Shown here: positions 562 through 59,554 of the stretch, piece by piece | Layout: each line of letters begins with the position of its first letter | How positions within the stretch are numbered: position 1 is the first letter of the stretch | NCBI GenBank assembly: GCA_035363095.1 | Contig: DAOSEK010000003.1 | Location: 8,597-72,596 of the forward strand | Length of the DNA: 64,000 nucleotides | DNA from: Candidatus Woesearchaeota archaeon | GTDB taxonomy: Archaea; Nanobdellota; Nanobdellia; Woesearchaeales; UBA119 | Reading direction: 5' to 3' | Made by a program: the position numbers and the translations under genes | The notes under the pieces: generated by a model | Databases searched by the model: none | The model's input: only the letters and a program-made list of their open reading frames with translations | What the model was told of the DNA's origin: nothing

Positions 562-839
562 TAGATAGTCAAAGTATCTTGGTAGATAGTCTAACTATCT
601 TGTTAGATAGTCTAAGGTTAATCAATTTATGCATTTTTTTGTTTACCTGTTTCTTTTTCCTTCGACCTCAAGACCAAAGTATGCAAAAGACGGATTCATG
701 AGATCGACAACCTCACCATAAAAGGCGAGGTATGTTGGTAATATAAAAGCATACCCTGCATTCAGCGAGGTTGTTGATTACAAGAAAGCATACCGAATCC
801 TCGTATTTAAACACAAGGTATGCTTTTCTATTAATCAAT
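562..839. repeat. Modular hairpin repeat family, copy 1: three 21-22 bp tandem units (tagatagtc...) followed by core palindrome and arm module
   Basis: Contains caacaacctcaccataaaaggcgaggtatgttggtaatataaaagcataccctgcattcagcgaggttgttgattacaagaaagcataccgaatcctcgtatttaaacacaaggtatgcttttctattaatcaa, which matches copies at 10341, 14230, 29033 and 56049. Confidence 0.85.
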
Positions 840-4131: not shown

Positions 4132-4461
4132 GGATTATTTAAATTATATTTTTTTCTTGTGTTTTTGAAGGTGAAATAATACAAAATAGAGATTTTTGTA
4201 ATAATACATTTTTTAGTATGGACTTTTAGCGAAATATAGAAAGATTAAAATAGTTAAATAGAAAATAATTTATAGTGATTGAATTAAAAATAATTTTATC
4301 GAATTAAGAATTAATCTACAAAATAATTTTAATAATCAGAGTTAAGAATTAAAAGTAATTACAAAGTACATATTGATAAGGCAATTGAATAAGCATAGTC
4401 TTTTTGACAGGTTTTTTCAAGAGTAACATATTTATAAAGTTTAAATTAAATACTGATTTTT

Positions 4462-4762
4462 GATTTCATGAAATCCAGCATCATTTCGCATACTTTGGCA
4501 AATAGAAAAGCATACCTCGTGTTTTAACAAGAGTACTCGGTACACTTTTCAGTAATCAACAACCTATTTGAATACAGCGCATGCTTTTATATTACCAATA
4601 TGCCTTGCCTGTTAGGGTGAGGTTGTTGATTTTTCAAGCCTAAGTAAGAGTATACGGATTCACGGACGAAAAACCTCGACTATTCACAAGATACCTCGGC
4701 AGTTATACCGAGGTTTTTCATTTTTCAAACCGAAAGTTTGAAAAGACGGATTCAGTAAACGC
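4462..4762. repeat. Modular hairpin repeat family, copy 2 (arm + core + hairpin/T-tract module)
   Basis: atgaaatccagcatcatttcgcatactttggcaaatagaaaagcatacctcgtgtttt...caacaacct...aggttgttga...gatacctcggcagttataccgaggtttttcatttttc...gacggattcag. Confidence 0.9.
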
Positions 4763-4941
4763 TTAACAGCGACTATTGGAGAGATACCAAAGATACTTAT
4801 CCTGAGATTTTTCGTTTAAATAAATGTTTGAGGCTAGCTTTTTAAAGTGGAATTTAAAAGAATCATATTATTGTTTTAAAATAAATGATGTATTGGTCTA
4901 ATGTTTGATTTATGATGCTTAATAAGAGGTGTTTTAAAAAA

Positions 4942-5928: not shown

Positions 5929-7203
5929 ATGAGTTTTGATAAAGAAAGCCTAAAGAAAATTAAGGAGATTTTTAAGATTGTTGAAGAGAAGGTTAGACCC
6001 AGAGGTGACTATCTTAAAATTATTAAAGAGGTTACAAAAAGAATTTCTCAAATAATAAAGGATAAAAATATCAAAGCTGATTGTTTTTTAGGTGGCTCTA
6101 TTGGTAAGGGCACTGAAATTTTAAGTGATTTTGATTGTGATATTTTTTTAAGATTTGATAAATCTTATTCAGAGATTGATATGCAAAAACTTTCAAGAGA
6201 AGTTTTAGCATCTTTTAAACCTGATAGATTAAAGGGCTCTAGAGAGTATTACCAGTTTAGAACCAAAGGGATTGATTTTGAGGTTGTTCCAGTACACAAA
6301 ATTAGGAGTAACCAGAGATCGAATAATTCTTCAGATTATTCAGTTCATCATGTAGCATGGGTGAAATCACACAATGAATTTGCATCAGATATAAGAGTGG
6401 CAAAGGCTTTTTGTAAAGGACAAAGAGTATATGGCGCGGAGTCTTATACAAATGGCATTTCAGGGTATGCTCTGGAGATATTAACAATCCACTATAAAGG
6501 TTTTATAAATCTTTTAAAACATGTTTCAACATGGAAGGAAAGAACAATTATCGACACAGAGAATAAATTGGATGGATTAAACCCTTTGATTGTGTTAAAC
6601 AAATCAAAGTTAGGTCCACTCATTTTAATCGACCCAATAACTCCTGGTAGAAATGCAGGGTCTGCACTTAGTGAAAGCAAATATCTGGACTTTAAAAATA
6701 GTTGTAAGAAGTTTATAAAAAAGCCAGATATTAAATTTTTTGAACGGATTTATTTAACTGAAGAAATAGTTGAAAAAAAGATTCATAAAAAAGGTGTTGT
6801 AACAATTCTTTTTTCACAAACACCTATTAAAGACCCATCCCAAGATAAAAGGGGAACAAGGATGCATAGACAATATCTTCAAATTCTTAATAATTTAAAG
6901 TCTTCTGATTTTGAAATTATTAAGAATGATTGGGATTGGGATACAAAAAATAATGCGCTTTTTTTCTTGCAATTTGATAATAAACTTCTTCCAAAAGATA
7001 CGATAGTTAAAGGGCCACCTATTGGGTTTGAAAGTTTTTGCAAAGAATTTAAAAGAAAATATTCATCTTGCTATGAAAAGAATGGAATGTTTTATTCTAA
7101 AATCAAAAGAAAGTATAGAGAGCCTGTTTCTTATATTAGAGAAGAGTTATTCCCAAAACTCTCTTTTGGAAATGAGATTAAAATAACAAGGATTCTTAAA
7201 TAG
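5929..7203 (+). CDS. cca: CCA-adding tRNA nucleotidyltransferase, archaeal class I (tentative)
   Basis: N-terminal GGSIGKGTEILSDFDCDIFLRF fits the class-I polymerase-beta-type GS-x-ARGT-x-L-x-SD-x-D-x-F motif. The length of 424 aa is typical. Its ATG directly abuts the gap stop (TAAATG). Confidence 0.55.
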   Translation: MSFDKESLKKIKEIFKIVEEKVRPRGDYLKIIKEVTKRISQIIKDKNIKADCFLGGSIGKGTEILSDFDCDIFLRFDKSYSEIDMQKLSREVLASFKPDRLKGSREYYQFRTKGIDFEVVPVHKIRSNQRSNNSSDYSVHHVAWVKSHNEFASDIRVAKAFCKGQRVYGAESYTNGISGYALEILTIHYKGFINLLKHVSTWKERTIIDTENKLDGLNPLIVLNKSKLGPLILIDPITPGRNAGSALSESKYLDFKNSCKKFIKKPDIKFFERIYLTEEIVEKKIHKKGVVTILFSQTPIKDPSQDKRGTRMHRQYLQILNNLKSSDFEIIKNDWDWDTKNNALFFLQFDNKLLPKDTIVKGPPIGFESFCKEFKRKYSSCYEKNGMFYSKIKRKYREPVSYIREELFPKLSFGNEIKITRILK

Positions 7204-7426
7204 AATTTTTGAAGTAATGACTTTGTCCTATATTTTTAGATAGGAGTTTTAGATTTTTTTTGTTTATATTTAATTTATTATAAGTTGTGTTTTTTTAATT
7301 GTTTTTTTGAAATCATTATTTAGTTTAACTCATTTTTATTAAAGTATTTTTGATAAAATGATAATTTTTTGATAAAGTAATGGGTATTGATTATTATATC
7401 AAAAAGATTTTTCCTAAATAGCTTTA

Positions 7427-7712
7427 TTTCATGAAATCCTGCTAATTCGCATACTTTTGTCAATAGAAAAGCATACCTCATGTTTTAACATGTGGACTTG
7501 GTACGCTTTTTTGTAATCAACAACCTCGCTGAATGTATTGTATACTTTTATATTACCAACATGCCTTGCCCTTTAGGGTAAGATTGTTGATTTTTTAAGC
7601 CAAAGTGAGAATAGACGGATTTATGCAAGGATTAACCTCGACTATCCAAGAGATACCTCGCCATTTATGCTGAGGTTTTTCATTTTTCAAGCCAAAAGTT
7701 TGAAGAGAGAGA
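7427..7712. repeat. Modular hairpin repeat family, copy 3
   Basis: atgaaatcctgctaattcgcatacttttgtcaatagaaaagcatacctcatgtttt...caacaacctcgctgaatgtattgtatacttttatattaccaacatgcc...agattgttga...gatacctcgccatttatgctgaggtttttcatttttc. Confidence 0.9.
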
Positions 7713-7876
7713 ATCAAAGGTTTAATTAAAAAAAAAGATATTCATAAAACTATTAATATTTAACTTTCTAGTTCTGATATATTCCGGTACTATCTAGTTA
7801 AGATGCATTCTAATATAAGCTTGAAGGTTTTTCGTTTTTAGTATAATTACAACCTATGTTACGATATATTTTATAA

Positions 7877-8521
7877 ATGTATAAGAATTCTTACAATTTT
7901 ATGAAATGTGAGGAGAAAGAGCTTAAAAAAAAGCTTGTTTTCGAGATAAAGAGAAAGATTGTTCATATATTTTTAGGGGTACTAATAATATACTTTTTAA
8001 GTGCAGGAGTAATTGATGATTTTACTCTTTTTGTGGTTTTGGTGTGCTCTATTTTTGTATCTATTTGTTCTAAATACATTCACGTTCCTATTTGGGATCA
8101 GATTCTTCAAAGATTTGATAGACCTGAATCCCGTAGAAACTTTCCGGGCAGGGGGTTTATATATTTTATTGCAGGTGCTCTTTTATCGATAAAGCTTTTC
8201 CCCCAAGATATTGCTTTTGCAAGCATAATGATTGTAACTATTGGAGATAGTGCTTCTTGTATTTTTGGAATGAGTTATAAGCTTATTACTAGGAAAAATG
8301 GGAATAAAAAGGAATTATTTGGCACGTTTTCAGCGTTATTACTTTCTTTAGGATTTGCAATGATATTTGTTGGTTTTAAAGAAGCTTTGATTGCAAGTGC
8401 TATTGCTCTTTTTGCTGAATTTGCTGAGTTTAGGTTAAATAAACAAAAGATTGATGATAATTTAGTAGTTCCGCTTGTTGCAGGTACCACGATTCTTTTG
8501 ATAAGAAAGTTCTTTTTGTAA
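7877..8521 (+). CDS. Polytopic membrane protein, CdsA/dolichol-kinase (CTP-transferase) family-like
   Basis: RKIVH early, then a GDSASCIFG (GD-x-AS-x-x-G) motif, with multiple TM segments. Confidence 0.4.
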   Translation: MYKNSYNFMKCEEKELKKKLVFEIKRKIVHIFLGVLIIYFLSAGVIDDFTLFVVLVCSIFVSICSKYIHVPIWDQILQRFDRPESRRNFPGRGFIYFIAGALLSIKLFPQDIAFASIMIVTIGDSASCIFGMSYKLITRKNGNKKELFGTFSALLLSLGFAMIFVGFKEALIASAIALFAEFAEFRLNKQKIDDNLVVPLVAGTTILLIRKFFL

Positions 8522-8635
8522 GGGTTATTTTTATTTTTAATTTCTTTTTTTCTCAGATATTATTCTCATTATTGTTGTTATTATTACATTATTATTTGAG
8601 TATATTATTTTTTTATATTTCTTTGTTATTAGTTT

Positions 8636-8785
8636 ATTTTATGAAATCCTCGCTCATTTTGCATACTTTGTTCTTTTGAGGTATGTAATAAAGAATAACT
8701 TGAGAAAAGAAGTATTCACATAACGTTTAACTTAGAATATCCTAAAGATATCTAAGACATTTATGCCGAGGTTTTTCATTGAATA
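8636..8785. repeat. Modular hairpin repeat family, copy 4 (single module; inverted partner at 14230-14372)
   Basis: Near-identical reverse complement of 14230-14372 (atgaaatcctcgctcattttgcatactttg...gacatttatgccgaggtttttc). Confidence 0.9.
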
Positions 8786-8889
8786 ATTCAAGTTTAATTC
8801 GAGTTTTTATACAGGATTTATACTTTCAAAAACTTTTAAACAAAGGTTAAAAACAAGATTGTTGTGCAAAGATTATGCTTTCAAACAAA

Positions 8890-9888
8890 TTAAGATACTA
8901 AGAATAGTTTGTCTTTTGCGATGATTACTTCTATTTGCTCACCAATTTTTAATTTTGAGATCATGGTTTTTGAAAGATTTCCTTCTAATTGAGTCTCTTC
9001 AAAGGTTTTGGGATGTAGAACAGATATGTTTGGATATGTTTTGATTACCTGAGCGTTTATAGGAGAGATTATTTCATATTTGTCTTTAAAAGGGTCTATG
9101 TGAAGTTGGATTTTTTGATTAGAAAATAGTTCTTTAACAATTATTTTATTTTTAGTAGAGATAATTTTATAGAAATCGTTCTCTAATCTGATAACTTCAC
9201 CTTTATAAAAAGAGGGTGCGTTATACCTTATGTTTGTTCTAAGAATATCTTTTGAGGTTAGTCGGTTTCTTGAGAACAGCTGAGTGGAAAAATCATAATC
9301 GCCTCCAAAAGTGTCAATAAATTGAGTTATGTCTTTTCTTACTTTTTGGATTGAGCGAAATTTTACATCGAACCCAAATTGAGTTAAACCAATGCTTTTT
9401 ATGTCATAATTTTCTGGTTTTGTTATTATTTCTTCTCTTATGAGGGAAATTATTTTATCTTTTCTCCCTCTTACCTGCAAGATTCCTTCAAAATATCCGC
9501 TAGTTTTTTGGCTACAGTTTAGGCACAATTCTTTGTTTAGTGGTGCTGTATAGATAAGTTCTTGTGAGAATTTCTTTTTTTTAAATAATGAGTTTAGTAA
9601 GAAAACTATCTCATAGGTATTTTTATTGGGCTGAAGTTGTTTGATTTTTATACTTATTTCATACATAGGATTTTTCTTAATTGAATTAAAAAGCAGTTCT
9701 TCAGCCACTTTTTTTATCTCTTTAGTTTCCCATTTCCCTTTGATAAGATATGAATTACATTTGGGACAGGTAACTATTGAAAACTGATTAATTCCAAAAA
9801 TTGGAGGATTTAATTCATAATAACATTTAAGGCAAAGAAATTCTTCCTCTCTTTTTTTCTTTCCACACTTGATACACTTATCGTTCAT
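8890..9888 (-). CDS. NMD3-like zinc-ribbon protein (archaeal homolog of the 60S export adaptor), tentative
   Basis: N-terminus has CIKCGKK...CLKCYYE followed by CPKCNSYL and CLNCSQK Cys pairs. Size 332 aa. Confidence 0.4.
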   Translation of the reverse strand: MNDKCIKCGKKKREEEFLCLKCYYELNPPIFGINQFSIVTCPKCNSYLIKGKWETKEIKKVAEELLFNSIKKNPMYEISIKIKQLQPNKNTYEIVFLLNSLFKKKKFSQELIYTAPLNKELCLNCSQKTSGYFEGILQVRGRKDKIISLIREEIITKPENYDIKSIGLTQFGFDVKFRSIQKVRKDITQFIDTFGGDYDFSTQLFSRNRLTSKDILRTNIRYNAPSFYKGEVIRLENDFYKIISTKNKIIVKELFSNQKIQLHIDPFKDKYEIISPINAQVIKTYPNISVLHPKTFEETQLEGNLSKTMISKLKIGEQIEVIIAKDKLFLVS

Positions 9889-10340
9889 TAAGTTTAGTTT
9901 TAGTTTTTCCTTTAAATAGATTGCTTTAAAAACGGGCTAATTACAGCAAAAAAGAAAGATTAAAAAACCCCAAGATTTAAATAATCAATCTAAATCAATT
10001 AGCAAATTGCTGTTTTGGATGGTTTTTCATGAAATTCGTTTTTTTTTCCAAACTGTGGCATTAATGAGAAAGTAAGAAGAGTATAAAAGAGTTAAGAGGA
10101 AAGTATTTTACTTATGAATAATATGAACTTTTTGCCAGATATCTTGTGGTATTTATGCTTGAGTGGTTTTTCATTTATTTTGAATATTAATTTCGCGGAT
10201 TTCAACAAAATTACTCCAAAATATATAAAGTATCAAATAAAGTTTGCACAAGTATCATATGGTTTTTGGGTATTTTCACAAAATCATAATTGTATTAGAA
10301 TTGGATAAAAAAAACTTGATATAAACGTTGAGAACCTATA

Positions 10341-10610
10341 ATGAAAGACCTCAGCCTAAATGCCAAGATTTTTCGTGAATAATCGAGGTTAATCCTTGCA
10401 TGGATCCGTATATTCAAACTTTTGGCTTGAAAAATCAACAACCTCACCCTAAAGGACGAGGTATGTTGGTAATATAAAAGCATGCGCTGTATTCAGCTAG
10501 GTTGTTGATTACAAAAAAGTGTACCGAGTCCTCTTGTTGAAACACGAGGTATGCTTTTCTATTGGCCAAAGTATGCGAATGAACTGGATTTCATGAAATG
10601 AAAACATACC
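10341..10610. repeat. Modular hairpin repeat family, copy 5 (H1-type module + core palindrome + arm)
   Basis: ...tcaacaacctcaccctaaaggacgaggtatgttggtaatataaaagcatgcgctgtattcagctaggttgttgattacaaaaaagtgtaccgagtcctcttgttgaaacacgaggtatgcttttctattggccaaagtatgcgaatgaactggatttcatgaaatgaaaa. Confidence 0.9.
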
Positions 10611-10637
10611 TGATTTAAATTAATGTAAATATACAAA

Positions 10638-13600
10638 GTGTTTGTTCAAATGACTCAGATAAAAAAGCTTGTAATGAATGGTTTTAAGTCCTTCGCGAAA
10701 AGAACAGAGCTTAATTTTGGAAACAATTTTAATGTAATCTTAGGACCAAATGGCTCTGGGAAATCTAATGTTTTAGATGCTATATGCTTTGTTTTAGGTA
10801 GAATGAGTGCTAAGAGTATGAGGGTTGAAAGGGGCTCAAATTTAATCTATAATGGAGGACCTAAGGGCAAAACACTTGAGAAAGCAGAGGTTTCTATTGA
10901 GTTTGATAACTCCAAAAAAGAGTTCCCCTTAGAAGGAGATGTAAAGATTTCAAGAATAATACATCAAAGTGGACAAAGCGATTATAGAATAAATAACAAG
11001 AGAACTACAAGACAAAATGTAATTGATTTACTGAGTGCGGCAAAGATTAATCCTGAGGGGTATAACATAACTTTGCAAGGGGATATTACTAAGTTTATTG
11101 AGATGTCTAGTAATGAGAAACGCCAGATTATAGAGGAGATCTCAGGAATTTCAATATATCAGGAAAAAAAAGCAAAAGCTGAATCTGAACTATCAAAAGT
11201 AGAAGAAAAACTTAAAGAAGCTGATATTATTTTAAATGAGAGAAAAAATTATCTTAAGGACCTTAAAAAAGAAAGGGATCAAGCTTTAAAATACAAGGAA
11301 ATGAAAGATAAGATTGATCAAAATAGAGCTACATATCTAAATATTCAATTAACTAAGAAAAATGTGGAGTTAGAAGAAATTAAATCCAAAGCTACAAAGA
11401 TAAATGTCGAGGTTGAAAAGGCAAATTCTAAGATAGAACAATACAAAAAGAAAATTTCAGATAATAAGAACAAAAGTGAGGAAATTTCAAAACATATTGA
11501 AGAAAAAGGCCAAAAGGAACAGATTGAACTAAATAGAGAGATTGAAGGACTCAAAGTAGATTTTGAGAAGAATAAAATTATTCTTGAAAATCATAAAAGG
11601 GAGAAAGAAAAGCTCTCTGAGAGAAAGATAGCTATTGAAAATGAGATTTCAGATATTGAATCTAAAATATTATTATCACAATCACTTGTAAAGGAAAATG
11701 AATCCATTCTACTAGCTAAGAATAAAGATATAGAATTAATTAAAACAAAGGTTCAAAAAATAAAAAAAGACTATAATCTTGAAAATATTGGCGATATTGA
11801 AAGCTCATTGGAAAAAAATGATAAAGAGATCGAAGAGCTATCAGCAGAAGCAAATTCTTTAAGGGAGATTCAGCAGTCCCTTTTGAGAGAAAAGGATAGA
11901 CTTGCTTTAGAGCTTGAGATGATTTCAAAGGAAGCCGAAAAGATTGAAGGACTTAAAAAAGAACATAAAAAGGAGATTAGTGAACTTGAATCTAAAAAGG
12001 ATGAATTTAAAAAGGCTACTTTACTTTTGAATAATTTATTAAATGATGATTCTAAGATTTCGCTTGAAATTGGAGAGCTTAAAAAGAAGTCGATTTCTTT
12101 AAGAGAAAGACTTGAATCGCTCAAAATAAAAAGCGAGTCAATTAAGCAATCTCAGGCTTTTGATGTTTCGTTAAAGAAGATTCTTGAACTAAAATCTAAA
12201 TACTCAGGGATTTATGGGAAGATTTCAGATCTTGGTACCACACAGGCAAAATACTCTTCAGCCCTTGATGCTACAGCAGGAGGTTCTATGAATTATATTG
12301 TTGTTGATAACGATCAGACAGCAACTATTTGCATTAAATACCTTAAAGAAAATAAACTTGGGAGTGCTGTTTTTATTCCCTTGAATAAGATAAGATATAG
12401 CGATCCTACTCCTGAACAAAAGAAACTATTGGCAACAACTGGAGCAATTGATTTTGCAATAAACCTTGTGAAGTGTGATCCAAAGTTTAGGAATGCTTTC
12501 AAATTTGTCTTTGGCTCAACAATTGTTGTGAATGATATTGATGTTTCTAGAAGGATTGGTATTGGCAAAATAAGAATGGTTACACTTGATGGAGATTTGA
12601 CAGAAACTAGTGGACTTATGAGAGGAGGTTTTAACAAAACTAAAAGGGTTTCAGGATTTAAAAGCGAAGAGTTCTCAAAAGAGATGGAAGAGCTTGAGAT
12701 TAGTGTACAAAAGAGTGATTCCCAGATTTCTAAGCTTGCAAGGGAAAAAGACGAGATAGAATCTAAGATTTCGGAATTAAGAAATAAAAAGGCATCTTTG
12801 GAAGGAGAAATAATTAAGCTTAGTAAAGGTCTTTATCTTGATGAGAATACACTTGATGTGTCTTCAACTAAGGTCGATATTCTTAAAAAGGAATCTGGCA
12901 GAGTTGATAATGAATTATCAAAGATTGTAAGTAAGATAAGTGAGTTAAACAAGAAATTAGCAGGATTAAAGATTGATAAACAAAAGCTAAAAGAAAGTAT
13001 TTCAAAGATGAAAGACCCTGCTAAGGTTGCAGAGCTTACAACATATGAGGAGACCTTAAGAAAGCTTGAAAGGGATATATTTGAAAAGGAACCTATTATA
13101 AAGCTTGAAAAAGATAAAATTGAGTCATATAAAAAGGAAGTTGATGATTCAAAGCAAGCTATTAAAGAACTTGATAAGGAAGATTTAAAGATTACAAAGG
13201 AGATAAATGAACTTTGTAAAAGAATTGAAAACATAAATAAGGAAATTACGCAAAAAGAAGGGAAGGCTGAGAAGTTTTACGTTGAATTTAAAGAACTTTT
13301 TGAAAAGAGAAGTAAGCTTGAAAAGGAAAACCAAGTAATTGATAATGAGATTAATTCTATTTTCTCAGAGTCAAGAACTCTTGAGCAGAAATATAATCTC
13401 TTATCACTTCAGATTGTTCAGGCTGAAGGTGAGAAATCTAATCTGTGTAAACAGCTTGAACCATATGTTAAGGTAGAGCTTATTAAAAATCCTGATGAGG
13501 AACAAATTAAAAAGGAAATTGCACGATTTGAAATGCTTGTAGAGAGTATTGGTACTGTTAATATGAAGGCTTTGGAGATATATGACCTTGCCGAAGGAGA

Positions 13601-14144
13601 GTATAATAAGTTTTTGGATAAAAAGAAAACGCTTGAATCTGAAAGAGAGGAAGTGTTAAAACTTATTAAGAGTCTTGAACATAAAAAGAAGGAAAAGTTC
13701 TTTGATATTTTTGAGAAGACAAATGATAATTTTAAGAAGATGTTTAGTGAGTTATCTACAAAAGATAGCAGTGCCTACCTTGAGCTTGAGAATCCAGAAT
13801 CTCCTTTTGAAGGAGGAATGAATTTGAAGGTTAAGATTAGTGGCAATAGATATCTTGATTTAAGAAGCCTTTCAGGAGGAGAAAAATCATTAACGGCATT
13901 GGCATTTATTTTTTCAGTTCAGGAGTTTGAACCTGCATCATTTTATGTTCTTGATGAGGTTGATTCTGCACTTGATAAAAAGAATAGCGAAAAACTTGCT
14001 CAGCTCATTAAAAAATATTCAAAGCGAGCTCAGTATGTTGTAATCAGCCATAATGATGAGATGATTTCTGAGGGAGATTTGCTATTTGGAGCAAGCATGG
14101 ATAAGGCTACCTTGATTAGTAAGATTATTTCTGTTAGAGTTTAA
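10638..14144 (+). CDS. smc: Chromosome segregation protein SMC
   Basis: N-terminal Walker A GPNGSGKSN, about 1,168 aa with long coiled coils, a hinge, and C-terminal signature LSGGEKSLTALAFIFS plus Walker B VLDEVD. The functional start is probably the Met at 10650 (MTQIKKLVMNGFKSF). Confidence 0.9.
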   Translation: MFVQMTQIKKLVMNGFKSFAKRTELNFGNNFNVILGPNGSGKSNVLDAICFVLGRMSAKSMRVERGSNLIYNGGPKGKTLEKAEVSIEFDNSKKEFPLEGDVKISRIIHQSGQSDYRINNKRTTRQNVIDLLSAAKINPEGYNITLQGDITKFIEMSSNEKRQIIEEISGISIYQEKKAKAESELSKVEEKLKEADIILNERKNYLKDLKKERDQALKYKEMKDKIDQNRATYLNIQLTKKNVELEEIKSKATKINVEVEKANSKIEQYKKKISDNKNKSEEISKHIEEKGQKEQIELNREIEGLKVDFEKNKIILENHKREKEKLSERKIAIENEISDIESKILLSQSLVKENESILLAKNKDIELIKTKVQKIKKDYNLENIGDIESSLEKNDKEIEELSAEANSLREIQQSLLREKDRLALELEMISKEAEKIEGLKKEHKKEISELESKKDEFKKATLLLNNLLNDDSKISLEIGELKKKSISLRERLESLKIKSESIKQSQAFDVSLKKILELKSKYSGIYGKISDLGTTQAKYSSALDATAGGSMNYIVVDNDQTATICIKYLKENKLGSAVFIPLNKIRYSDPTPEQKKLLATTGAIDFAINLVKCDPKFRNAFKFVFGSTIVVNDIDVSRRIGIGKIRMVTLDGDLTETSGLMRGGFNKTKRVSGFKSEEFSKEMEELEISVQKSDSQISKLAREKDEIESKISELRNKKASLEGEIIKLSKGLYLDENTLDVSSTKVDILKKESGRVDNELSKIVSKISELNKKLAGLKIDKQKLKESISKMKDPAKVAELTTYEETLRKLERDIFEKEPIIKLEKDKIESYKKEVDDSKQAIKELDKEDLKITKEINELCKRIENINKEITQKEGKAEKFYVEFKELFEKRSKLEKENQVIDNEINSIFSESRTLEQKYNLLSLQIVQAEGEKSNLCKQLEPYVKVELIKNPDEEQIKKEIARFEMLVESIGTVNMKALEIYDLAEGEYNKFLDKKKTLESEREEVLKLIKSLEHKKKEKFFDIFEKTNDNFKKMFSELSTKDSSAYLELENPESPFEGGMNLKVKISGNRYLDLRSLSGGEKSLTALAFIFSVQEFEPASFYVLDEVDSALDKKNSEKLAQLIKKYSKRAQYVVISHNDEMISEGDLLFGASMDKATLISKIISVRV

Positions 14145-14229
14145 GTTACTTTATATATTGTTTTGGTGATCATAGTTTTATTTTTTTCTTGGCTTTTAGC
14201 AATATGTTTAATAGCTGTAAATAAGAGAA

Positions 14230-14628
14230 ATGAAAAAACTCGGCATAAATGTCTTAGATATCTTTAGGATATTCTAAGTTAAACGTTATGTGAATACTTC
14301 TTTTCTCAAGTTATTCTTTATTACATACCTCAAATGACCAAAGTATGCAAAATGAGCGAGGATTCCATGAAATGAAAAACCTCGGCATAAATGCCGAGGT
14401 ATCTTTAGGATAGTCAAGGTTAATCCTTGCATGAATCCGTCTATTCTGACTTTGGCTTGAAAAATCAACAACCTCGCTCTAAAGGGCGAGGTATGTTGGT
14501 AATATCAAGGCATGTTGGTAATATAAAAGCATCCGCTGTATTAAAGCGAGGTTGTTGATTACAAAAAAGCGTACCGAGTCCTCTTGTTGAAACATGAGAT
14601 ATGCTTTTCTAGTAATCAAGAAAAGAGA
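14230..14628. repeat. Modular hairpin repeat family, copy 6 (longest: extra module + H1 module + core + arm)
   Basis: Contains H1 cctcggcataaatgccgagg (14380-14399), H2 cctcgctctaaagggcgagg (14472-14491), a 13-bp outer palindrome tcaacaacctcgc/gcgaggttgttga, and an internal duplication of gcatgttggtaatat. Confidence 0.9.
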
Positions 14629-15975: not shown

Positions 15976-16057
15976 TATTTGTTAGTTTGTGCAGATTATT
16001 TTGGTTTCTTGTTTTGGTTCCTTGTTTGAGTTTAATGCTTGAGGAAATTTTATGTGT

Positions 16058-16130
16058 TTGTTATATTAGTTTATTGTTTGAGTATACTGTTTGAGTATGT
16101 TGCTTGAGTATGTTGTGAGTGTATTGTCAG
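16058..16130. repeat. Short tandem repeat (about 11-12 bp unit tgtttgagtat(g)) in glycosyltransferase upstream region
   Basis: gtttgagtatactgtttgagtatgttgcttgagtatgttgtgagtgtattg. Confidence 0.7.
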
Positions 16131-16289
16131 ATCATTATTGTAATATCATAATACATATTTCTTGAATTTATTTTTTAATTCTGTTTGTTGCATTTATTAG
16201 TTGATGCTTATGTCTTTTAGTGAATTCTGTTAATTGATAATTAGGTTGCATGAAATTGATGATGAAGTTGCATGAAATTGATGATTGTG

Positions 16290-17048: not shown

Positions 17049-17408
17049 TTTTTATTTGTTTTGTTTTTAAATATTAAATTATTCCTGTTAATATCTCTTT
17101 TAGGATATGTATTTTTGCATTTTGAATGGATAACTTTGTGAATTTGTTTTTTTAGGTTAAGTTTTGTGTGTTTAGATATAATTTTTGTGTATGAAAGGAT
17201 TATATATTAAGCTATTGAGCATGGTTTTAAACGAATGTTTGAATTTATTGGTTGAAAGTAAATTTTATTGTTTGAAAGCAATTTTTTAAAGTATAACTTT
17301 TAAAGCATGTATTTCAAAGGAGTATGAATAAAATGTTCATTTAAAGAGTTAACCAAAAAGGTATTGATTAACCTTGTTTGTTGGATGTAATTTAGTAGAT
17401 CTTGTTTA

Positions 17409-21683: not shown

Positions 21684-21838
21684 ATCTTGTCTGAGTGAGG
21701 TTCTATGTTTGAGTGAGATTCTATGTTAGAGTGCAGTTCAGTGTTTGAGCGAGGTTCTATGTTAGAGTGCAGTTCAGTATTAGAATACTGTTCAGTATTA
21801 CAGTGCAGTTCAGTGTCTGAGCGAGGTTGGGTGTTCTA
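21684..21838. repeat. Degenerate tandem repeat, about 18-bp unit (gagtgaggttctatgttt / gagtgcagttcagtgttt), about 8 copies
   Basis: Read directly; it lies in the divergent region between tgt (-) and a small membrane gene (+). Confidence 0.8.
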
Positions 21839-23619: not shown

Positions 23620-23925
23620 TTATTTCATGAATCCGTCATTTACATACTTTGGTTTTGGGGTTTGGTCGCAAGCCCTAAAATTTGAAGAAGCGGATTCACA
23701 TAACGATTAATCTAGAAACAATCTAGCAAGATATCTCCTAGTGTTTATGCTTTAAAGATTTTTTATTTTTGTGAGGCAATTAATCATTTTGCATACTTTG
23801 GTGCATAATACAGTAAGTAAGAACGGATAGATTTAAGATGTGTTTAAAAAAGAGAGATTTAAAAATAATAACCTTGAATTATAAATCTGATACCCAAAGA
23901 ATTTATGCTTAGGTTTTTCATCTTG
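23620..23925. repeat. Degenerate, decayed copy of the modular repeat family (copy 7)
   Basis: Contains fragments catgaatccgtc, catactttgg, ggattcac, ttttgcatactttggtg and tatgcttaggtttttcat shared with intact copies. Confidence 0.5.
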
Positions 23926-28928: not shown

Positions 28929-29032
28929 AAGGTTAGCTATTTTTGTTTTGAAAAGATTGAATCTCACTGGTCTTTGAGGGTCTCTGATTTTTTGTTTTTA
29001 GCTCTTTAATTAATTTGTTACAATATTTTAAA

Positions 29033-29168
29033 TTCAACAACCTCACCTTAAAGGGCGAGGCATGTTGGTAATATAAAAGCATGCACTGTGTTAAAGCAAG
29101 GTTGTTGATTACAAAAAAACGTACCGAGTCATCATGTTGAAACACGAGGTGTGCTTTTCTATTAATAA
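29033..29168. repeat. Modular hairpin repeat family, copy 8 (core + arm only)
   Basis: tcaacaacctcaccttaaagggcgaggcatgttggtaatataaaagcatgcactgtgttaaagcaaggttgttgattacaaaaaaacgtaccgagtcatcatgttgaaacacgaggtgtgcttttctattaataaa. Confidence 0.9.
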
Positions 29169-29199
29169 ATAATCTTACATTAATAGTCAAGGGGATTTT

Positions 29200-32934: not shown

Positions 32935-33505
32935 ATAATTAATGAGAAACCTTAAAGCATAAATGCCTTAGGTGTCTTGCAGATAGTTAAATGTTTTCCT
33001 TGCTTAAATTTCTAATTGTTAATCGTTAAGTGAACCCATCTCTTCTTACATAGGACCCAAAAGGTCAAGATGTGTAAAATGAGCTAGACTTCGCAATAAT
33101 GAAAACCCTCTGAATAAATGAAAGGTGACTTGCGAATACTCAAGGTTAATCGTTTAGTGAATCCATTTCTTCAAACTTCAGGCCCAAAGACCAAACCTCA
33201 AGACCAAAGTATGGGAATGAACTGGATTTCATGAAATGAAAAACCTCGGCATAAATGCTCCAGTTATCTCGCGAATAGTTGAGGTTAATCCTTGCATGAA
33301 TCCGTCTATTCAAACCTTAGGCCTCAAAACCAAAGTATGCGAAGTGATGCTGGATTTCACGAAATGGAAAATCAACAATCTCTCCCTAAAAGGCGAGCTA
33401 TGTGCTAATATAAAAGCATGCACTATATTTAGCAAGGTTGTTGATTACAAAAAAGCGTACAGAGTCCTCGTGTTTAAACACGATATCTCCTTCTCTATTA
33501 ATCAA
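32935..33505. repeat. Tandem array of three module variants + core + arm of the repeat family (copy 9, about 570 bp)
   Basis: Successive units start at about 32942, 33056 and 33200 (each ...ccaaag..atgaaaa(a)cc..taaatg..gaggttaatc..gaatcc..caaac). They are followed by tcaacaatctctccctaaaaggcgag...aaggttgttgattacaaaaaagcgtacagagtcctcgtgtttaaacacga. Confidence 0.85.
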
Positions 33506-33711
33506 TGTAAATAAAACATACTAGTACAAAAATTAATTATTTTAAAATTATATATTTGAACGCAGAATACAACTTAGAATATTTGGAATCTAATTAATAA
33601 AATCTAAAGGGATATTATTGAAAATGTTAGTTTTTTGCTCATAATTCAACTAAAAAAGAAAATATTTAAAAATAGAAAACACAAACGCTATTTATAAGAG
33701 GTGTTTTTAGT

Positions 33712-46652: not shown

Positions 46653-46761
46653 CGTATAAAAAACTTATTTATTATTGTTAAATAGTTAAAAAAATACAGT
46701 TAAAAAATATAGTTAATATAGTTAGAATAAATAATAGATAAAAAAACCTTGGACTAATTAC

Positions 46762-46908
46762 CAATGTATCTCGCAGATATTAGAGCTTAATCGTTTAGTA
46801 AATTCATCTCTTTTTACACAGGCACCAAATTCAAAGAGAGGTTGTTGATTTAAAAAAAGAGTACGGAACCCTCGTGTTGAAACACGAGGTATCCTTTTCT
46901 ATCAATGA
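46762..46908. repeat. Modular hairpin repeat family, copy 10 (partial module + arm with perfect H3 hairpin)
   Basis: tctcgcagatattagagcttaatcgtttagt...aggttgttgatttaaaaaaagagtacggaaccctcgtgttgaaacacgaggtatccttttctatcaatg; H3 cctcgtgtt-gaa-aacacgagg at 46870-46889. Confidence 0.85.
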
Positions 46909-46915
46909 AAGATTA

Positions 46916-48920: not shown

Positions 48921-49205
48921 TACTTTCCAATCTCTATTAATGAAAAACCTCGGGGTAAAGACCTAAGTGTCTCGTATATAATCGAGGCTAATCGCTTAGT
49001 GAATCCGTCTATTCAAACTTTCGGCTTGAAAAATCAACAACCTCACCCTAAAGAGCAAGGTATGTTGGTAATATAAAAGCATGCGCTGTATTCAAATAGT
49101 TTGTTGATTACAAAAAATTTTACCGAGTCCTCTTGTTAAAACACGAGGTATGCTTTTCGATTAACCAAATTATGCAAAATGAGCGAGCATTTCACGAAAT
49201 CATTT
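48921..49205. repeat. Modular hairpin repeat family, copy 11 (H1 module + core + arm + start of next module)
   Basis: tgaaaaacctcggggtaaagacc...gaggctaatcgcttagtgaatccgtctattcaaactttcggcttgaaaaatcaacaacctcaccctaaagagcaaggtatgttggtaatataaaagcatgcgctgtattcaaatagtttgttgattacaaaaaattttaccgagtcctcttgttaaaacacgaggtatgcttttcgattaaccaaattatgcaaaatgagcgagcatttcacgaaat. Confidence 0.9.
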
Positions 49206-54750: not shown

Positions 54751-56064
54751 ATGATAAAAAGAATATATGCAAGACAGGTATTTGATTCAAGAGGAAACCC
54801 TACTATTGAAGGAGAAGTTACAACTGAGCAAGGGATTTTTAGTTCTATGGTCCCTTCAGGCGCTTCAACTGGACTTTATGAAGCAGTGGAGCTAAGAGAC
54901 CAAGAAAAAGATTACTTAGGAAAGGGAGTTTTTAAGGCTATTGGAAATGTTAATTCTATTATATCAAATAAGATAGTAGGACTTGATGAAACAAAACAAT
55001 TTGAGATTGATGAGATAATGATTAGGTTAGATGGAACAAAAAACAAGTCTAATTTAGGAGCTAATGCGGTTCTTGCAGTTTCAATGGCTGTTGCAAGAGC
55101 AGGAGCAAAAACACTTAATCTTGAGCTTTTTGAATACCTTAAGATACTTTATGATTCATTATCTACAGAAAAAAACATTGATAAAAGCAATATCAAAAAA
55201 AAGGAATTTGTTATGCCTTGTCCTTGTTTTAATGTAATAAATGGTGGAGAGCATGCAGGAAATGATCTTGATATTCAAGAATACATGATTGTTCCCCTAA
55301 ATGCCAAAAACTTTTCAGAAGCCATGAAAATTGGAACAGAGATTTATCATACCCTTAAAAAGATTCTTAAAGAAAAATACGGTCCACAAGCTGTTAATGT
55401 GGGTGATGAAGGTGGGTTTGCTCCACCTTTGAAATCTGCTAAAGAACCGCTTTATTTAATTATGGATGCAATTAAGAGAACAGGCTACATTGATAAAGTA
55501 AGTATCGCTTTAGATGTTGCAGCTTCAGAGTTTTTTGATAATGGCTCGTATATGTTTGAAGGAAAAAAGCTATCTGGCGATGAATTATTGGATTTTTACA
55601 AAGAGATCGTATCAGAATTTCCAATATGCTCAATTGAGGACCCTTTTGAGCAAAATGACTTTGAATCTTACTCAAGGCTTACAGATCAACTTAAAGGAAT
55701 TCAGGTTGTAGGAGATGACCTTTTGGTAACAAACATTGAAAGAATTAAAATTGCAATTGAGAAAAAAGCCTGTAATTCGCTTTTATTAAAGTTAAACCAA
55801 ATTGGTACATTAAAAGAAGCTTTAGAAGCTGCTAACCTTTCAAGTAAATCTAATTGGGGAGTAATGATATCTCATAGAAGCGGTGAAACAGAGGACTCAT
55901 TTATTGCTGACCTTGCCTGTGCACTTTGTTTAGGACAGATAAAAAGCGGAGCGCCTGCTAGAAGCGAAAGACTTGCTAAGTATAATAGAATCTTAAGAAT
56001 TGAAGAGAAGTTAAAGGAAAGAGCTTCTTTTTCAAGGGTTTTAAAATCAAAAACCTCGGTCTAA
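54751..56064 (+). CDS. eno: Enolase (phosphopyruvate hydratase)
   Basis: N-terminal IYARQVFDSRGNPTIE, and VGDDL / SHRSGETED / LKLNQIGT active-site blocks. The last about 17 nt including the stop lie inside repeat copy 12. Confidence 0.9.
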   Translation: MIKRIYARQVFDSRGNPTIEGEVTTEQGIFSSMVPSGASTGLYEAVELRDQEKDYLGKGVFKAIGNVNSIISNKIVGLDETKQFEIDEIMIRLDGTKNKSNLGANAVLAVSMAVARAGAKTLNLELFEYLKILYDSLSTEKNIDKSNIKKKEFVMPCPCFNVINGGEHAGNDLDIQEYMIVPLNAKNFSEAMKIGTEIYHTLKKILKEKYGPQAVNVGDEGGFAPPLKSAKEPLYLIMDAIKRTGYIDKVSIALDVAASEFFDNGSYMFEGKKLSGDELLDFYKEIVSEFPICSIEDPFEQNDFESYSRLTDQLKGIQVVGDDLLVTNIERIKIAIEKKACNSLLLKLNQIGTLKEALEAANLSSKSNWGVMISHRSGETEDSFIADLACALCLGQIKSGAPARSERLAKYNRILRIEEKLKERASFSRVLKSKTSV

Positions 56065-56180
56065 AGGGCGAAGAGTTGGTAATATAAAAGCATGCGCTGT
56101 GTTAAAGCGAGGTTGTTGATTACAAAAAAGCGTACCAAGTCCTCGTTTTTAAACACGAGGTATGCTTTTCTATTAATCAA
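56049..56180. repeat. Modular hairpin repeat family, copy 12 (core + arm), overlapping enolase 3' end
   Basis: aaaacctcggtctaaagggcgaagagttggtaatataaaagcatgcgctgtgttaaagcgaggttgttgattacaaaaaagcgtaccaagtcctcgtttttaaacacgaggtatgcttttctattaatcaa. Confidence 0.9.
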
Positions 56181-56257
56181 TATTTGAAGTTCTAAGCGGT
56201 ATTTAAAATTTGTTTAAATTAGATATGAAGATTAAATATCACAATTAGATATAAAGA

Positions 56258-57598: not shown

Positions 57599-57725
57599 TA
57601 ATGAAAAACCTCTGCATAAATGGGAGGTATCTCGTGGATAGTCAAGGTTAAAGGTTTAGTGAATCCGTCTCTTCAAACTTTAGACCTTAAGACCAAAGTA
57701 TGCAAAATGAGCTGGATTTCACAAA
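57599..57725. repeat. Modular hairpin repeat family, copy 13 (H1-type module only)
   Basis: atgaaaaacctctgcataaatgggaggtatctcgtggatagtcaaggttaaaggtttagtgaatccgtctcttcaaactttagaccttaagaccaaagtatgcaaaatgagctggatttcac. Confidence 0.85.
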
Positions 57726-57811
57726 AATCTAAATAACTTAGACTCGGTTGTTTTCTTAGTATGTTATTTTCTTAGTATGTTGTTTTCTTATTATATTGTT
57801 TTTTGTATAAT

Positions 57812-59251: not shown

Positions 59252-59457
59252 TTAATTCTTTTAAGAAGATATATAAACGTTTCGATGAAGTCTTTAATTT
59301 GTGCCATACATTATAAAAACAAATGAGATTTCGATTAGGATTTGCTAACTAATTAAAAATTCACACACTAAAAATTCACACACTGGACGTGTTTATCTAA
59401 ATTTCACAAGGTAATTTTAGGATAATTTCAGGATAATAATCAATTTGCTTATTTGTT

Positions 59458-59554
59458 GATATCATGAAATCCTGCATCATTTCGCATACTTTGGTCAATA
59501 GAAAAGCATACCTCGTTTTGAAAAACGAGGACTCGGTACGCTTTTCTATAAATC
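59458..59554. repeat. Modular hairpin repeat family, copy 14 (arm module only)
   Basis: atgaaatcctgcatcatttcgcatactttggtcaatagaaaagcatacctcgttttgaaaaacgaggactcggtacgcttttctataaatca. Confidence 0.9.

What the first reader, a model, noticed from the sequence alone, without database searches (positions are those of the whole stretch)
10341..10610. Each element encodes three near-identical stem-loops CCTCG-N3-TAAA-N3-CGAGG, each followed by GTATG, plus a TATA-box-like AATATAAAAG in the palindrome centre
Within single copies there are three hairpins: H1 cctcggca-taaa-tgccgagg, H2 cctcgccc/cctcgctc-taaa-gggcgagg, and H3 cctcgtgtt-(t)aaa-cacgagg. Examples are 14380-14399, 14472-14491 and 46870-46889. 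All share the CCTCG...CGAGG clamp, and each is followed by gtatct, gtatgttgg or gtatgctttt. H2 sits inside a 13-bp outer inverted repeat, tcaacaacctcgc / gcgaggttgttga. The loop region ggtaatataaaagcatgcgc (10468-10487) reads TTTTATATTA on the other strand, which is a good match to an archaeal TATA box. In one orientation H1 is followed by TTTTTCATTTTTC, as in 4700-4730 and 7660-7695, the shape of a hairpin plus oligo-T terminator. Some copies carry paired base differences in the N3 positions that keep the stem, for example cctcgctc...gggcgagg with a G-U pair. Others, such as cctcaccc...ggacgagg, have mismatches, so RNA-level selection is unproven. A thrice-repeated protein or RNA recognition hairpin combined with a promoter-like core suggests the elements are functional units rather than inert repeats. 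They could be small RNAs driven from their own TATA box, binding sites for a single structure-specific protein, or orientation-dependent terminators.
Basis: partly seen in the sequence, partly recalled or inferred. Interest (0 to 1): 0.75.

Follow-up and report, generated by a model that had tools for sequence, protein, structure and literature searches.

The report
Hairpin-ended mobile repeats in a Woesearchaeon
The three look-alike hairpins belong to a very abundant family of small, gene-less mobile DNA elements in a tiny DPANN archaeon, built like cut-down IS200/IS605 insertion sequences; this kind of element is known, though this family has not been described.

Summary
Window 10341-10597 is one full copy of a ~257-265 nt modular repeat (A-B-C-T). 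It occupies 14 intergenic spacers, 5.1% of the window. I found 207 distinct copies in 783 kb of related Woesearchaeota (DPANN) contigs. The family consensus carries three CCTCG-N3-TAAA-N3-CGAGG hairpins, each followed by TAT.

Individual copies show no compensatory change, and RNAalifold predicts no conserved structure. Stems decay at the same rate as non-stem positions.

Read on the opposite strand, the element has IS200/IS605 (PATE-like) anatomy. There are no terminal inverted repeats. Two right ends are hairpin + 8 nt (TTGTTGAT| and TTTTTCAT|), and one left end has a hairpin 15 nt inside. The left flank is TTGAT/TTNAT in 33/61 and 44/50 copies. Two occupied-versus-empty site pairs are consistent with clean insertion 3' of T(N)AT.

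New copies land after the TTNAT that ends older copies, which explains the nested and tandem mosaics. The TATA-like core is one arm of an internal inverted repeat and lacks a BRE. Terminator-type placement is not seen.

No Y1 transposase was found in the sampled DNA, so the mobilising enzyme is inferred. Verdict: a new member of a known kind, of moderate interest.

The parts
10341..10597 (+). Index copy: full composite element A-B-C-T, given in consensus orientation. The proposed transposon 'top strand' is the minus strand.
   Evidence: nhmmer hit to the family HMM, model positions 1-264, E=2e-82. Boundaries follow the two occupied/empty comparisons.
10598..10602 (-). TTCAT on the minus strand: target-type pentanucleotide flanking the proposed left end
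   Evidence: Direct reading. Family statistics give TTGAT in 33/61 copies and TTNAT in 44/50.
10341..10433 (+). Module A. On the minus strand it is a right end: hairpin H1 followed by TTTTTCAT. In this copy H1 (10349-10368) is decayed.
10434..10509 (+). Module B: 15-bp outer inverted repeat (10434-10448 / 10495-10509) enclosing H2 (10442-10461). On the minus strand it is a right end: H2 followed by TTGTTGAT.
   Evidence: Weak Rfam HEARO match at 10434-10559, 20.9 bits.
10468..10487 (.). TATA-like core ggtaatataaaagcatgcgc; inverted partner of the C end (atgcttttctatt)
   Evidence: Fold of the consensus. No BRE when compared with the window's own promoters.
10510..10564 (+). Module C with H3 (10530-10549). 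On the minus strand it is the left end of unit C-B, with the hairpin 15 nt from the end.
10565..10597 (+). Module T (…CCAAAGTATGCGAA…GGATTTCATGAA). It is the left end of the composite on the minus strand and the inverted partner of A positions 60-86.
588..838 (+). Copy: degenerate A, then T, then B-C
4461..4816 (-). Copy: extra A followed by full A-B-C-T. The same spacer is occupied in the related species (L030).
7424..7723 (-). Copy: partial A followed by full A-B-C-T. The spacer is empty in L030.
8636..8780 (-). Copy: short A-T form. The spacer is empty in L030.
14229..14619 (+). Copies: A-T followed by A-B-C, with H1 and H2 intact
23669..23921 (-). Two diverged A-T copies
29027..29169 (+). 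Stand-alone B-C unit
32941..33509 (+). Array: A-T, A-T, A-T, then B-C
46742..46911 (+). A fused to half of B plus C; H3 intact
48939..49202 (+). Full A-B-C-T copy
56025..56204 (+). B-C unit overlapping the last 40 nt of the enolase ORF
57600..57724 (+). Short A-T copy
59457..59551 (-). C-T fragment

Best explanation
The hairpins are the end structures of a family of small, protein-less mobile elements of the IS200/IS605 superfamily type (PATE-like).

Anatomy, shown from sequence.

- Unit C-B (~140 nt). Its left end is TAATAGAAAAGCATA followed by hairpin H3. Its right end is ATA, hairpin H2, then TTGTTGAT.
- Unit T-A (~145 nt). Its right end is ATA, hairpin H1, then TTTTTCAT.
- The 257-265 nt 'full' element is C-B nested inside T-A. 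That composite then spread as a unit.

Mechanism, inferred.

- A Y1 (HUH) transposase supplied in trans binds the CCTCG...CGAGG hairpins in single-stranded DNA.
- It cuts after the T(N)AT at each boundary.
- It re-inserts the circle 3' of a TTGAT/TTNAT target, without a target duplication.
- Every element ends in TTGAT or TTCAT, so each copy creates a new target. This would give the tandem A arrays and the T>A, T>B and nested mosaics.

After insertion, copies are not maintained. They decay under the genome's GC-to-AT and CpG mutation bias.
For: 1. Dispersed, strictly intergenic and in both orientations. It occupies 14 spacers, 5.1% of the window. There are 207 distinct loci in 783 kb of related contigs.

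2. Mobility. Three of four window spacers that hold copies are empty in the syntenic region of a related species, L030.

3. Two occupied/empty pairs in close relatives.
- L110 vs L063/L070. Empty (minus strand) CCCTTGAT|TTTTTAGG; occupied CCCTTGAT|TTCATGAATCC...GGTTTTTCAT|TTTTTAGG.
- L116 vs L010. Empty GAATTAT|TTTTATAC; occupied GAATCAT|TAATAGAAAAGG...GGTTGTTGAT|TTTTATAC.

4. Flanks. The left flank is TTGAT in 33/61 T ends and TTNAT in 44/50 C ends, against a pentamer background of about 0.3%. The right flank is variable.

5. Ends. No terminal inverted repeats bound the insertion units. The hairpins lie on one strand, 15 nt from the left end and 8 nt from both right ends, each preceded by (C/G)ATA.

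6. Junctions. T>A (..GGTTTTTCAT|TTCATG..) and T>B (..GGTTGTTGAT|TTCATG..) recur at many loci. Tandem A copy number varies between strains.

7. The hairpin matters to the family. The three inner stems differ but are each complementary.

8. Copies are not constrained afterwards.

9. Literature. ISDra2 inserts 3' of TTGAT with subterminal hairpins bound by TnpA on ssDNA (PMC2806898). ISC/IS605B elements have 5'-GTCA termini and N|ATGA, ATCA or ATAA targets, which is the same as our plus-strand reading ...|ATCA/ATGA/ATAA. PATEs are their protein-less derivatives (PMC4810608; 10.1101/2023.03.14.532601).

10. Module B gives a weak Rfam match to the 5' domain of the HEARO/IscB omega-RNA, starting at the element boundary: 20.9 bits, E=0.014.

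11. Orientation bias. The hairpin-bearing strand lies in the sense of flanking co-directional genes in 41 vs 18 spacers, p=0.004. This is compatible with insertion into exposed single strands.
Against: - No Y1 transposase, TnpB or IscB was found. There was none among ~50 window ORFs by Pfam. There was none among 10 candidate ORFs next to atypical copies. No HUH-Y, DxNAAxNI or HNH motif occurs in any ORF of 70 aa or more in the 783 kb. No multi-copy ORF family was found.
- The left end of unit T-A has no CCTCG-type hairpin near its tip, only a long imperfect palindrome with A.
- Both empty sites leave a 3-4 nt ambiguity (AT/ATT/AAAT), so a 2-4 bp target duplication cannot be excluded.
- The TTGAT flank is as conserved as the element. 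Only the two empty sites show that it belongs to the target.
- The HEARO match is far below the gathering score (83 bits). Hairpin-rich miRNA models score as high on other copies.
- Element orientation inside the window is 9:5. This does not show a single replication-linked strand preference.
Confidence: 0.6

Rival explanations
1. The repeats are a mobile or recombination-spread family (MITE/BOX/Correia-like) moved by some mechanism other than a Y1 transposase. Candidates are a DDE transposase making a 2-bp AT duplication, or spread by recombination and slippage between AT-rich microhomologies. On this reading the hairpins are incidental, or serve another protein.
For: - Module B on its own has a perfect 15-bp terminal inverted repeat and occurs alone at several loci.
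- Both empty sites are compatible with an AT or AAAT duplication.
- No Y1 transposase was found.
- A MITE census reports a Woesearchaeal genome with 105 MITEs per Mb (PMC11602168).
- Tandem A copy-number change between strains looks like slippage.
Against: - The units shown to insert (T..A composite, C-B) have no terminal inverted repeats.
- The flank on one side only is a fixed pentanucleotide, while the other side varies.
- No DDE transposase or multi-copy ORF was found either.
- The inner stems of the three hairpins are complementary, which a double-strand-binding dimer would not require.
Confidence: 0.2
2. Host-useful cis elements (REP-like roles). On the minus strand, hairpin plus T5 would act as an orientation-dependent transcription terminator or mRNA stabiliser, and/or the conserved core would be a promoter or protein-binding site.
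For: - Every A module reads CCGAGG-TTTTTCAT on the minus strand.
- In spacers between co-directional genes, this strand is in the mRNA sense 41 vs 18 times, p=0.004.
- The core GGTAATATAAAAGCAT is the best-kept part of B in the unbiased window sample, 8 of 9 copies.
Against: - There is no enrichment in convergent spacers (18% vs 19% background). Enrichment is in divergent spacers, where no terminator is needed.
- Orthologous spacers in a related species function without the element.
- Hairpins decay freely. In one search only 9-15% of distinct stem variants were fully paired, and stems are no better conserved than non-stems.
- The core lacks the A-rich BRE of this organism's promoters.
Confidence: 0.1
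3. Small structured RNA genes: elements transcribed from their own TATA box. One form would be miniature omega-RNA-like guides for an IscB/TnpB-type nuclease.
For: - Weak HEARO (IscB omega-RNA) similarity of module B, starting exactly at the element boundary.
- PATEs are reported to often carry omega-RNAs (10.1101/2023.03.14.532601).
- The consensus folds far better than shuffles, z = -7.8.
Against: - Nothing in the window except the tRNA reaches an Rfam gathering score.
- The HEARO score is 20.9 against 83, with the middle 135 model positions missing. Similar scores to miRNA hairpin models occur on other copies.
- No covariation.
- No IscB or TnpB found.
- T5 runs lie just beyond the putative start sites.
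Confidence: 0.08

Closest known systems
PATEs (palindrome-associated transposable elements): protein-less derivatives of IS200/IS605 elements. Described in Haloquadratum walsbyi (PMC3119063) and Geobacillus stearothermophilus (10.1101/2023.03.14.532601).
   Same: Short and non-coding. No terminal inverted repeats. Subterminal hairpins on one strand. A fixed short target on the left side only. Many copies in spacers. Dependent on a transposase in trans.
   Different: No parent IS or TnpA was identified here. The host is a DPANN archaeon. The elements form nested and tandem mosaics of two related units, and density is unusually high (5% of the window). The left end of one unit lacks the family hairpin.
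ISDra2 of Deinococcus radiodurans (IS200/IS605 family)
   Same: Insertion 3' of the pentanucleotide TTGAT. Subterminal secondary structures at both ends (PMC2806898).
   Different: ISDra2 is 1.7 kb and encodes TnpA and TnpB. No sequence similarity was tested or seen. Here the target is looser (TTNAT).
ISC / IscB transposons and their HEARO omega-RNA (RF02033; PMC4810608)
   Same: In the same orientation, the 5' terminus is GTCA.. (here ATCAAC..) and the targets are N|ATGA/ATCA/ATAA (here |ATCA, |ATGA, |ATAA). The HEARO 5' domain has an outer stem UCAAC.A/U.GUUGA around a CCCUAAAGG hairpin, resembling module B.
   Different: There is no iscB gene. The Rfam score is 20.9 against a threshold of 83, and most of the RNA model is absent. 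The similarity may be chance.
REP / BIME / REPIN elements with RAYT transposases (PMC2817692, PMC3116915, PMC3733652)
   Same: Abundant extragenic hairpins with a conserved short tag at the hairpin foot. Mosaic arrangements. Thought to be moved by a Y1 HUH enzyme.
   Different: REPs are 20-40 nt, tagged GTAG or CGTC, paired in inverted orientation, and flank a single-copy RAYT gene. Here the hairpins are co-oriented, tagged (C/G)ATA, and embedded in 140-265 nt units with distinct left and right ends. RAYT-type subclasses are reported only from bacteria (PMC6006769).
Modular bacterial repeats (pneumococcal BOX, Neisseria Correia elements, Rickettsia RPEs); comparison from my own knowledge
   Same: Modular build, stable predicted folds, spacer location, occasional insertion into genes.
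   Different: Correia elements have terminal inverted repeats and a TA duplication. None has the one-sided TTGAT target.

Membership tests
IS200/IS605 superfamily, non-autonomous (PATE) | No terminal inverted repeats at the ends of the unit that inserts | tested here: met
   The ends defined by the occupied/empty pairs are not complementary: TTCATGAATCC.. vs ..GGTTTTTCAT, and TAATAGAAAAGG.. vs ..GGTTGTTGAT.
IS200/IS605 superfamily, non-autonomous (PATE) | Subterminal imperfect hairpins on the same strand at both ends | tested here: met
   Unit C-B has H3 15 nt from the left end and H2 8 nt from the right end. Unit T-A has H1 8 nt from the right end, but its left end has only a long palindrome with A.
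IS200/IS605 superfamily, non-autonomous (PATE) | Insertion 3' of a specific 4-5 nt target that flanks the left end only | tested here: met
   TTGAT in 33/61 copies and TTNAT in 44/50; the right flank is variable. Both empty sites carry T(N)AT at the junction.
IS200/IS605 superfamily, non-autonomous (PATE) | No target-site duplication | tested here: inconclusive
   The two empty sites leave 3-4 nt of ambiguity (ATT, AAAT). This fits either no duplication with target and element both ending in AT, or a short duplication.
IS200/IS605 superfamily, non-autonomous (PATE) | A Y1 (HUH) TnpA in the same genome able to act in trans | tested here: inconclusive
   None was found in the window by Pfam. None was found by motif scan of 783 kb or among 10 candidate ORFs. 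The genomes are only partly sampled.
IS200/IS605 superfamily, non-autonomous (PATE) | Single-strand mechanism with a lagging-strand-template bias | not testable with these tools
   The replication origin and direction are unknown. Only a 41:18 bias relative to gene direction was measured.
HEARO / IscB omega-RNA (RF02033) | Score at or above the Rfam gathering threshold, with an adjacent iscB ORF | tested here: not met
   Scores are 20.9, 17.2 and 19.5 bits against 83. No HNH/RuvC ORF was found.
REP / REPIN with RAYT | 20-40 nt palindromes tagged GTAG or CGTC, in inverted pairs, flanking a single-copy RAYT gene | tested here: not met
   The tag at the hairpin foot is (C/G)ATA. All hairpins are co-oriented inside larger units. 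No HUH protein was found.
Classical MITE (DDE transposase derived) | Terminal inverted repeats plus a variable-sequence target-site duplication | tested here: not met
   Only module B has terminal inverted repeats. The units that insert do not, and the flanks are not direct repeats of variable sequence.
Structured non-coding RNA gene | Compensatory base changes that keep the helices across copies | tested here: not met
   RNAalifold on 85 A modules predicts 0 pairs. Paired fractions versus shuffle are H1 0.726 vs 0.732, H3 0.822 vs 0.820, and H2 0.800 vs 0.780. Double changes are not above shuffle.
Archaeal promoter (BRE + TATA) | TATA box preceded by a purine/A-rich BRE, about 25 nt upstream of a start site | tested here: inconclusive
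   TTTTATATTA is present, but it is preceded by GCATGC. The window's own promoters read (C)GAAAnG-TTTAWATA. No transcript data are available.
Transcription terminator | Hairpin or T-run placed at gene 3' ends, so enriched in convergent and tandem spacers in the correct orientation | tested here: inconclusive
   The sequence is present. Orientation bias is 41:18 in tandem spacers. There is no convergent-spacer enrichment, but there is divergent-spacer enrichment.

The most novel reading that the evidence does not exclude
The elements are not only parasites. The conserved TATA-like core just upstream of the right-end hairpin would drive short outward transcripts (hairpin + TTGTTGAT + flanking sequence) that act as minimal guide RNAs for an unrecognised IscB/TnpB-like or other nuclease. 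Alternatively, an archaeal, domesticated Y1 enzyme maintains them as a REPIN-like system in a DPANN genome. In that case the hairpin-T5 side has been co-opted for termination, and the stop and ATG at the termini allow genes to be split rather than destroyed.
Probability: 0.08. Interest if true: 0.75.

Novelty: new member of a known kind. Interest (0 to 1): 0.4.

Why it matters
DPANN archaea have tiny, streamlined genomes, yet about 5% of this window is one repeat family. That makes these elements a major and so far undescribed force shaping spacer length, gene boundaries and strain differences in Woesearchaeota.

Practical uses:

- The family gives a sharp sequence marker for assigning contigs to these organisms. 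It exposes probable mis-binned contigs filed under Elusimicrobia, Saccharibacteria and Methanosarcinales.
- It gives a defined substrate (ATA-CCTCG..CGAGG-TTGTTGAT, target TTGAT) for finding and testing the cognate single-strand transposase.
- If that transposase proves absent, the family becomes more interesting.

Tried and rejected
- **Rfam.** At gathering thresholds only tRNA-Arg was found. Permissive scans gave only weak hits: HEARO at 17-21 bits and miRNA hairpin models up to 27.5 bits.
- **Structured RNA.** Rejected on covariation tests and on equal decay of stems and non-stems.
- **Terminator as primary role.** Rejected on spacer-type distribution.
- **Promoter.** Not supported. There is no BRE, and the core is an arm of an inverted repeat.
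- **Autonomous partner searches, all negative.**
  - Pfam on ~50 window ORFs.
  - All-against-all clustering of 634 ORFs for multi-copy genes.
  - A-only and B-only copies with ORFs inside.
  - The hairpin motif outside known copies, only 3 sites.
  - Motif scan for HUH-Y1, TnpB and HNH.
  - Two scans of viral contigs, 0 hits.
- **Element ends routinely supplying stop and start codons to split genes.** Only one clear case, not above other reading frames.
- **Orthologous-copy constraint test, window 4461-4722 vs L030 235-490.** Within-element identity is about 87-88% (estimated by eye from the alignment), with unalignable flanks. This is ambiguous between an ancient insertion under constraint and two independent insertions.
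- **Automated search for more occupied/empty pairs.** Apart from the two pairs already reported (L110, L116), its hits were element-to-element artefacts.
- **First 18-mer scan of genome contigs.** Mostly chance hits in AT-rich bacteria.
- **The search for homologous proteins.** I ran no further search on a remembered TnpA sequence, because hits could not be tied to this organism.

Full report
**What is there.**
- The window is ~30% G+C. It encodes archaeal housekeeping genes: TFB, NMD3, archaeal CCA-adding enzyme, NurA, SMC, diphthamide synthase, plus MutS/MutL, enolase and GAPDH.
- Exact protein look-ups name the source as a Candidatus Woesearchaeota (DPANN) MAG.
- The finding's interval is one full copy (10341-10597) of a dispersed repeat.
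- Iterated nhmmer finds the family in 14 intergenic spacers of the window, as 17 blocks totalling 3,238 nt, or 5.1%. No copy sits inside a gene, apart from a 40-nt overlap with the enolase 3' end.
The hairpin motif occurs 13 times against 0 expected.

**Modular build.**
- The consensus (264 positions) has four modules:
  - A (1-94), with hairpin H1 and a weaker fourth hairpin TCTCG-N8-CGAGG.
  - B (95-171), a 15-bp outer inverted repeat around H2.
  - C (172-226), with H3.
  - T (227-260).
- Observed forms are A-B-C-T, A-T, B-C, B alone, A-T-B-C, tandem A arrays and fragments.

**More copies.**
- Pattern scans of public genomes and metagenomes gave 97 further loci, for 783 kb in total with the window. 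Their sample codes point to related environmental metagenomes, and one record name (ADurb.Bin231) suggests anaerobic digesters; sample origin was not checked further.
- These hold 257 unique pieces at 207 distinct loci.
- One related species (contig CAZTMQ010000006, labelled Methanosarcinales) is syntenic with window 4681-13718 at 70-79% nucleotide identity in aligned segments.

**Is the hairpin conserved as structure?**
- At the family level, yes. H1, H2 and H3 share the clamp CCTCG/CGAGG and the 3' TAT. Their inner three base pairs differ (GCA/TGC, CCC/GGG, TGT/ACA) and are complementary in each.
- At the level of copies, no.
  - RNAalifold on 85 A modules predicts no pair at all.
  - The fraction of paired cells equals column-shuffle expectation: H1 0.726 vs 0.732, H3 0.822 vs 0.820, outer B 0.897 vs 0.893.
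  - H2 is 0.800 vs 0.780, a margin that shared ancestry can give.
  - Double changes are not in excess. Most departures are single transitions such as A.C or T.C.
  - Column identity depends on base type and hardly on stem membership: A/T 0.915, non-CpG G/C 0.828, CpG 0.715, with a stem/non-stem difference of only 0.02-0.04.
- So the hairpins matter when a copy is made, not afterwards.

**They are mobile.**
- Three of the four window spacers in the syntenic block that hold copies are short and empty in the related species.
- Two occupied/empty pairs in closer relatives fix the boundaries to within 3-4 nt.
  - A full composite in L110 vs L063/L070, with flanks about 90-94% identical.
  - A B-C unit in L116 vs L010.
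- Tandem A modules differ in number (2 vs 3) between strains 93-97% identical.

**Anatomy on the other strand.** Reading the minus strand of the consensus gives the following.
- Unit C-B is [T(N)AT]|TAATAGAAAAGCATA-CCTCGTGTTTCAACACGAGG ... ACATA-CCTCGCCCTTTAGGGCGAGG-TTGTTGAT|.
- Unit T-A ends ...GAGATA-CCTCGGCATTTATGCCGAGG-TTTTTCAT|.
- The empty sites are CCCTTGAT|TTTTTAGG and GAATTAT|TTTTATAC. The inserts start right after T(N)AT and end in TTCAT or TTGAT.
- Across distinct loci the pentamer left of T ends is TTGAT in 33/61. Left of stand-alone C ends it is TTNAT in 44/50. The background is about 0.3% per pentamer, and the other flank is variable.
- There are no terminal inverted repeats at these boundaries.
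- The recurring junctions GGTTTTTCAT|TTCATG (T after A) and GGTTGTTGAT|TTCATG (T-A after B) are what is expected if new copies land 3' of the TTNAT that ends an older copy. So is C-B lying after TTGGT inside T-A.
From my own knowledge of IS608, this is where IS200/IS605 ends carry their guide nucleotides.

**Comparison with the known.**
- ISDra2 inserts 3' of TTGAT and has subterminal structures bound by TnpA on single strands (PMC2806898).
- ISC/IS605B transposons have 5'-GTCA termini, no inverted repeats, no duplications and N|ATGA/ATCA/ATAA targets. PATEs are listed as protein-less relatives (PMC4810608).
- In our plus-strand reading the elements begin ATCAAC and are followed by ATCA, ATGA or ATAA.
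- PATE-like elements sharing IS ends are also described in Geobacillus (10.1101/2023.03.14.532601).
- A permissive Rfam scan matches module B to the 5' domain of HEARO, the IscB omega-RNA, starting at the boundary: 20.9 bits, E=0.014 for that small search.
- The score is far below threshold, and hairpin-rich miRNA models score as well on other copies. I treat the HEARO match as a lead only.
- RAYT-type Y1 enzymes are reported only from bacteria, whereas typical IS200 TnpA occurs in archaea (PMC6006769).
- A MITE census already noted a Woesearchaeal genome among the most MITE-dense archaea, at 105 per Mb (PMC11602168).

**What is missing.**
- No transposase was found. This covers Pfam on the window ORFs, 10 candidate ORFs, ORF clustering, motif scans of all ORFs in 783 kb, the hairpin motif outside known copies, and viral contigs.
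- The genomes are only partly sampled, so this is inconclusive. It is the main reason confidence stays at 0.6.

- TATA box.
  - The core is well kept, but it lacks the A-rich BRE seen upstream of this organism's genes and tRNA.
  - It pairs with the end of C in the predicted fold of the consensus, z = -7.8.
  - On the minus strand, this means the left tip of unit C-B is complementary to the stretch just before its right-end hairpin.
- Terminators.
  - Hairpin plus T5 exists on the minus strand of every A.
  - However, elements are not enriched in convergent spacers (21 of 114, against 100 of 534 in the background). They are enriched in divergent spacers (34 of 114, against 92 of 534).
- Orientation.
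  - In spacers between co-directional genes the hairpin strand is in the gene sense 41 vs 18 times, p=0.004.
  - This fits either a mild terminator-related filter or insertion into exposed single strands.

**Verdict.** This is a real, non-random feature. It is best read as a new family of PATE-like IS200/IS605-type elements, nested and tandem, in Woesearchaeota. The hairpins are transposase recognition structures, not maintained RNA structures.

Noticed in passing
L110:1003-1259 versus L063:8479-9222 and L070:4870-5613: One full copy is inserted inside an ORF that is intact in two relatives (247 aa, weak AP_endonuc_2 hit). The element start supplies an in-frame TGA and its end an in-frame ATG. 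Both halves remain open (131 and 118 codons), so the gene may be split rather than destroyed. No other clear case was found.
   Followed up: partly
All element copies; whole window: CpG positions in the copies are the most variable (identity 0.715, against 0.828 for other G/C and 0.915 for A/T), mostly by transitions. CpG is depleted in the window (observed/expected 0.49). This suggests CpG hypermutability, for example through cytosine methylation.
   Followed up: partly
L008 (MWCF01000041.1), L060 (CAZQHF010000014.1), L010-L059 (CAZTMQ01): Element-bearing contigs are filed in MAGs labelled Elusimicrobia, Candidatus Saccharibacteria and Methanosarcinales. The 'Methanosarcinales' contig L030 is syntenic with this Woesearchaeota window. 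Mis-binning or mislabelling is likely.
   Followed up: partly
window 21688-21831: An intergenic array of about 8 copies of an 18-nt unit (TGTTTGAGTGAGGTTCTA, also readable as 36- or 54-nt periods). Many other spacers hold 13-26 nt tandem repeats, for example 16049-16297, 17143-17286 and 57747-57802.
   Followed up: no
L086:~5340-5460 versus L132: Two otherwise identical strains differ by expansion of a ~14-nt tandem repeat (TCTAACTCAAATTA, about 2 vs about 11 copies) just downstream of an element.
   Followed up: no
window 26398-27114, 27281-28021, 36629-37447 and 37366-37950: Three paralogous ORFs with no Pfam family (31-43% identity, also present in L060). One overlaps a small HTH_38/HTH_23 protein. 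A 78-nt inverted repeat links 27509-27586 and 37070-37147.
   Followed up: no
window 40809-45510 and 4912-5928: Full-length bacterial-type MutL and MutS, and a Gp_dh-type GAPDH, in a DPANN archaeon. These are possibly horizontally acquired.
   Followed up: no
Consensus positions 125-145 versus 211-232; window 10466-10486 versus 10549-10567: The left tip of unit C-B (TAATAGAAAAGCAT on the minus strand) is complementary to the stretch just 5' of its right-end hairpin. In a single strand this would bring the two ends together. In the two right ends, the third base of the terminal pentamer (TTGAT vs TTCAT) co-varies with the base before ATA at the hairpin foot (C vs G). This rests on two data points only.
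   Followed up: no
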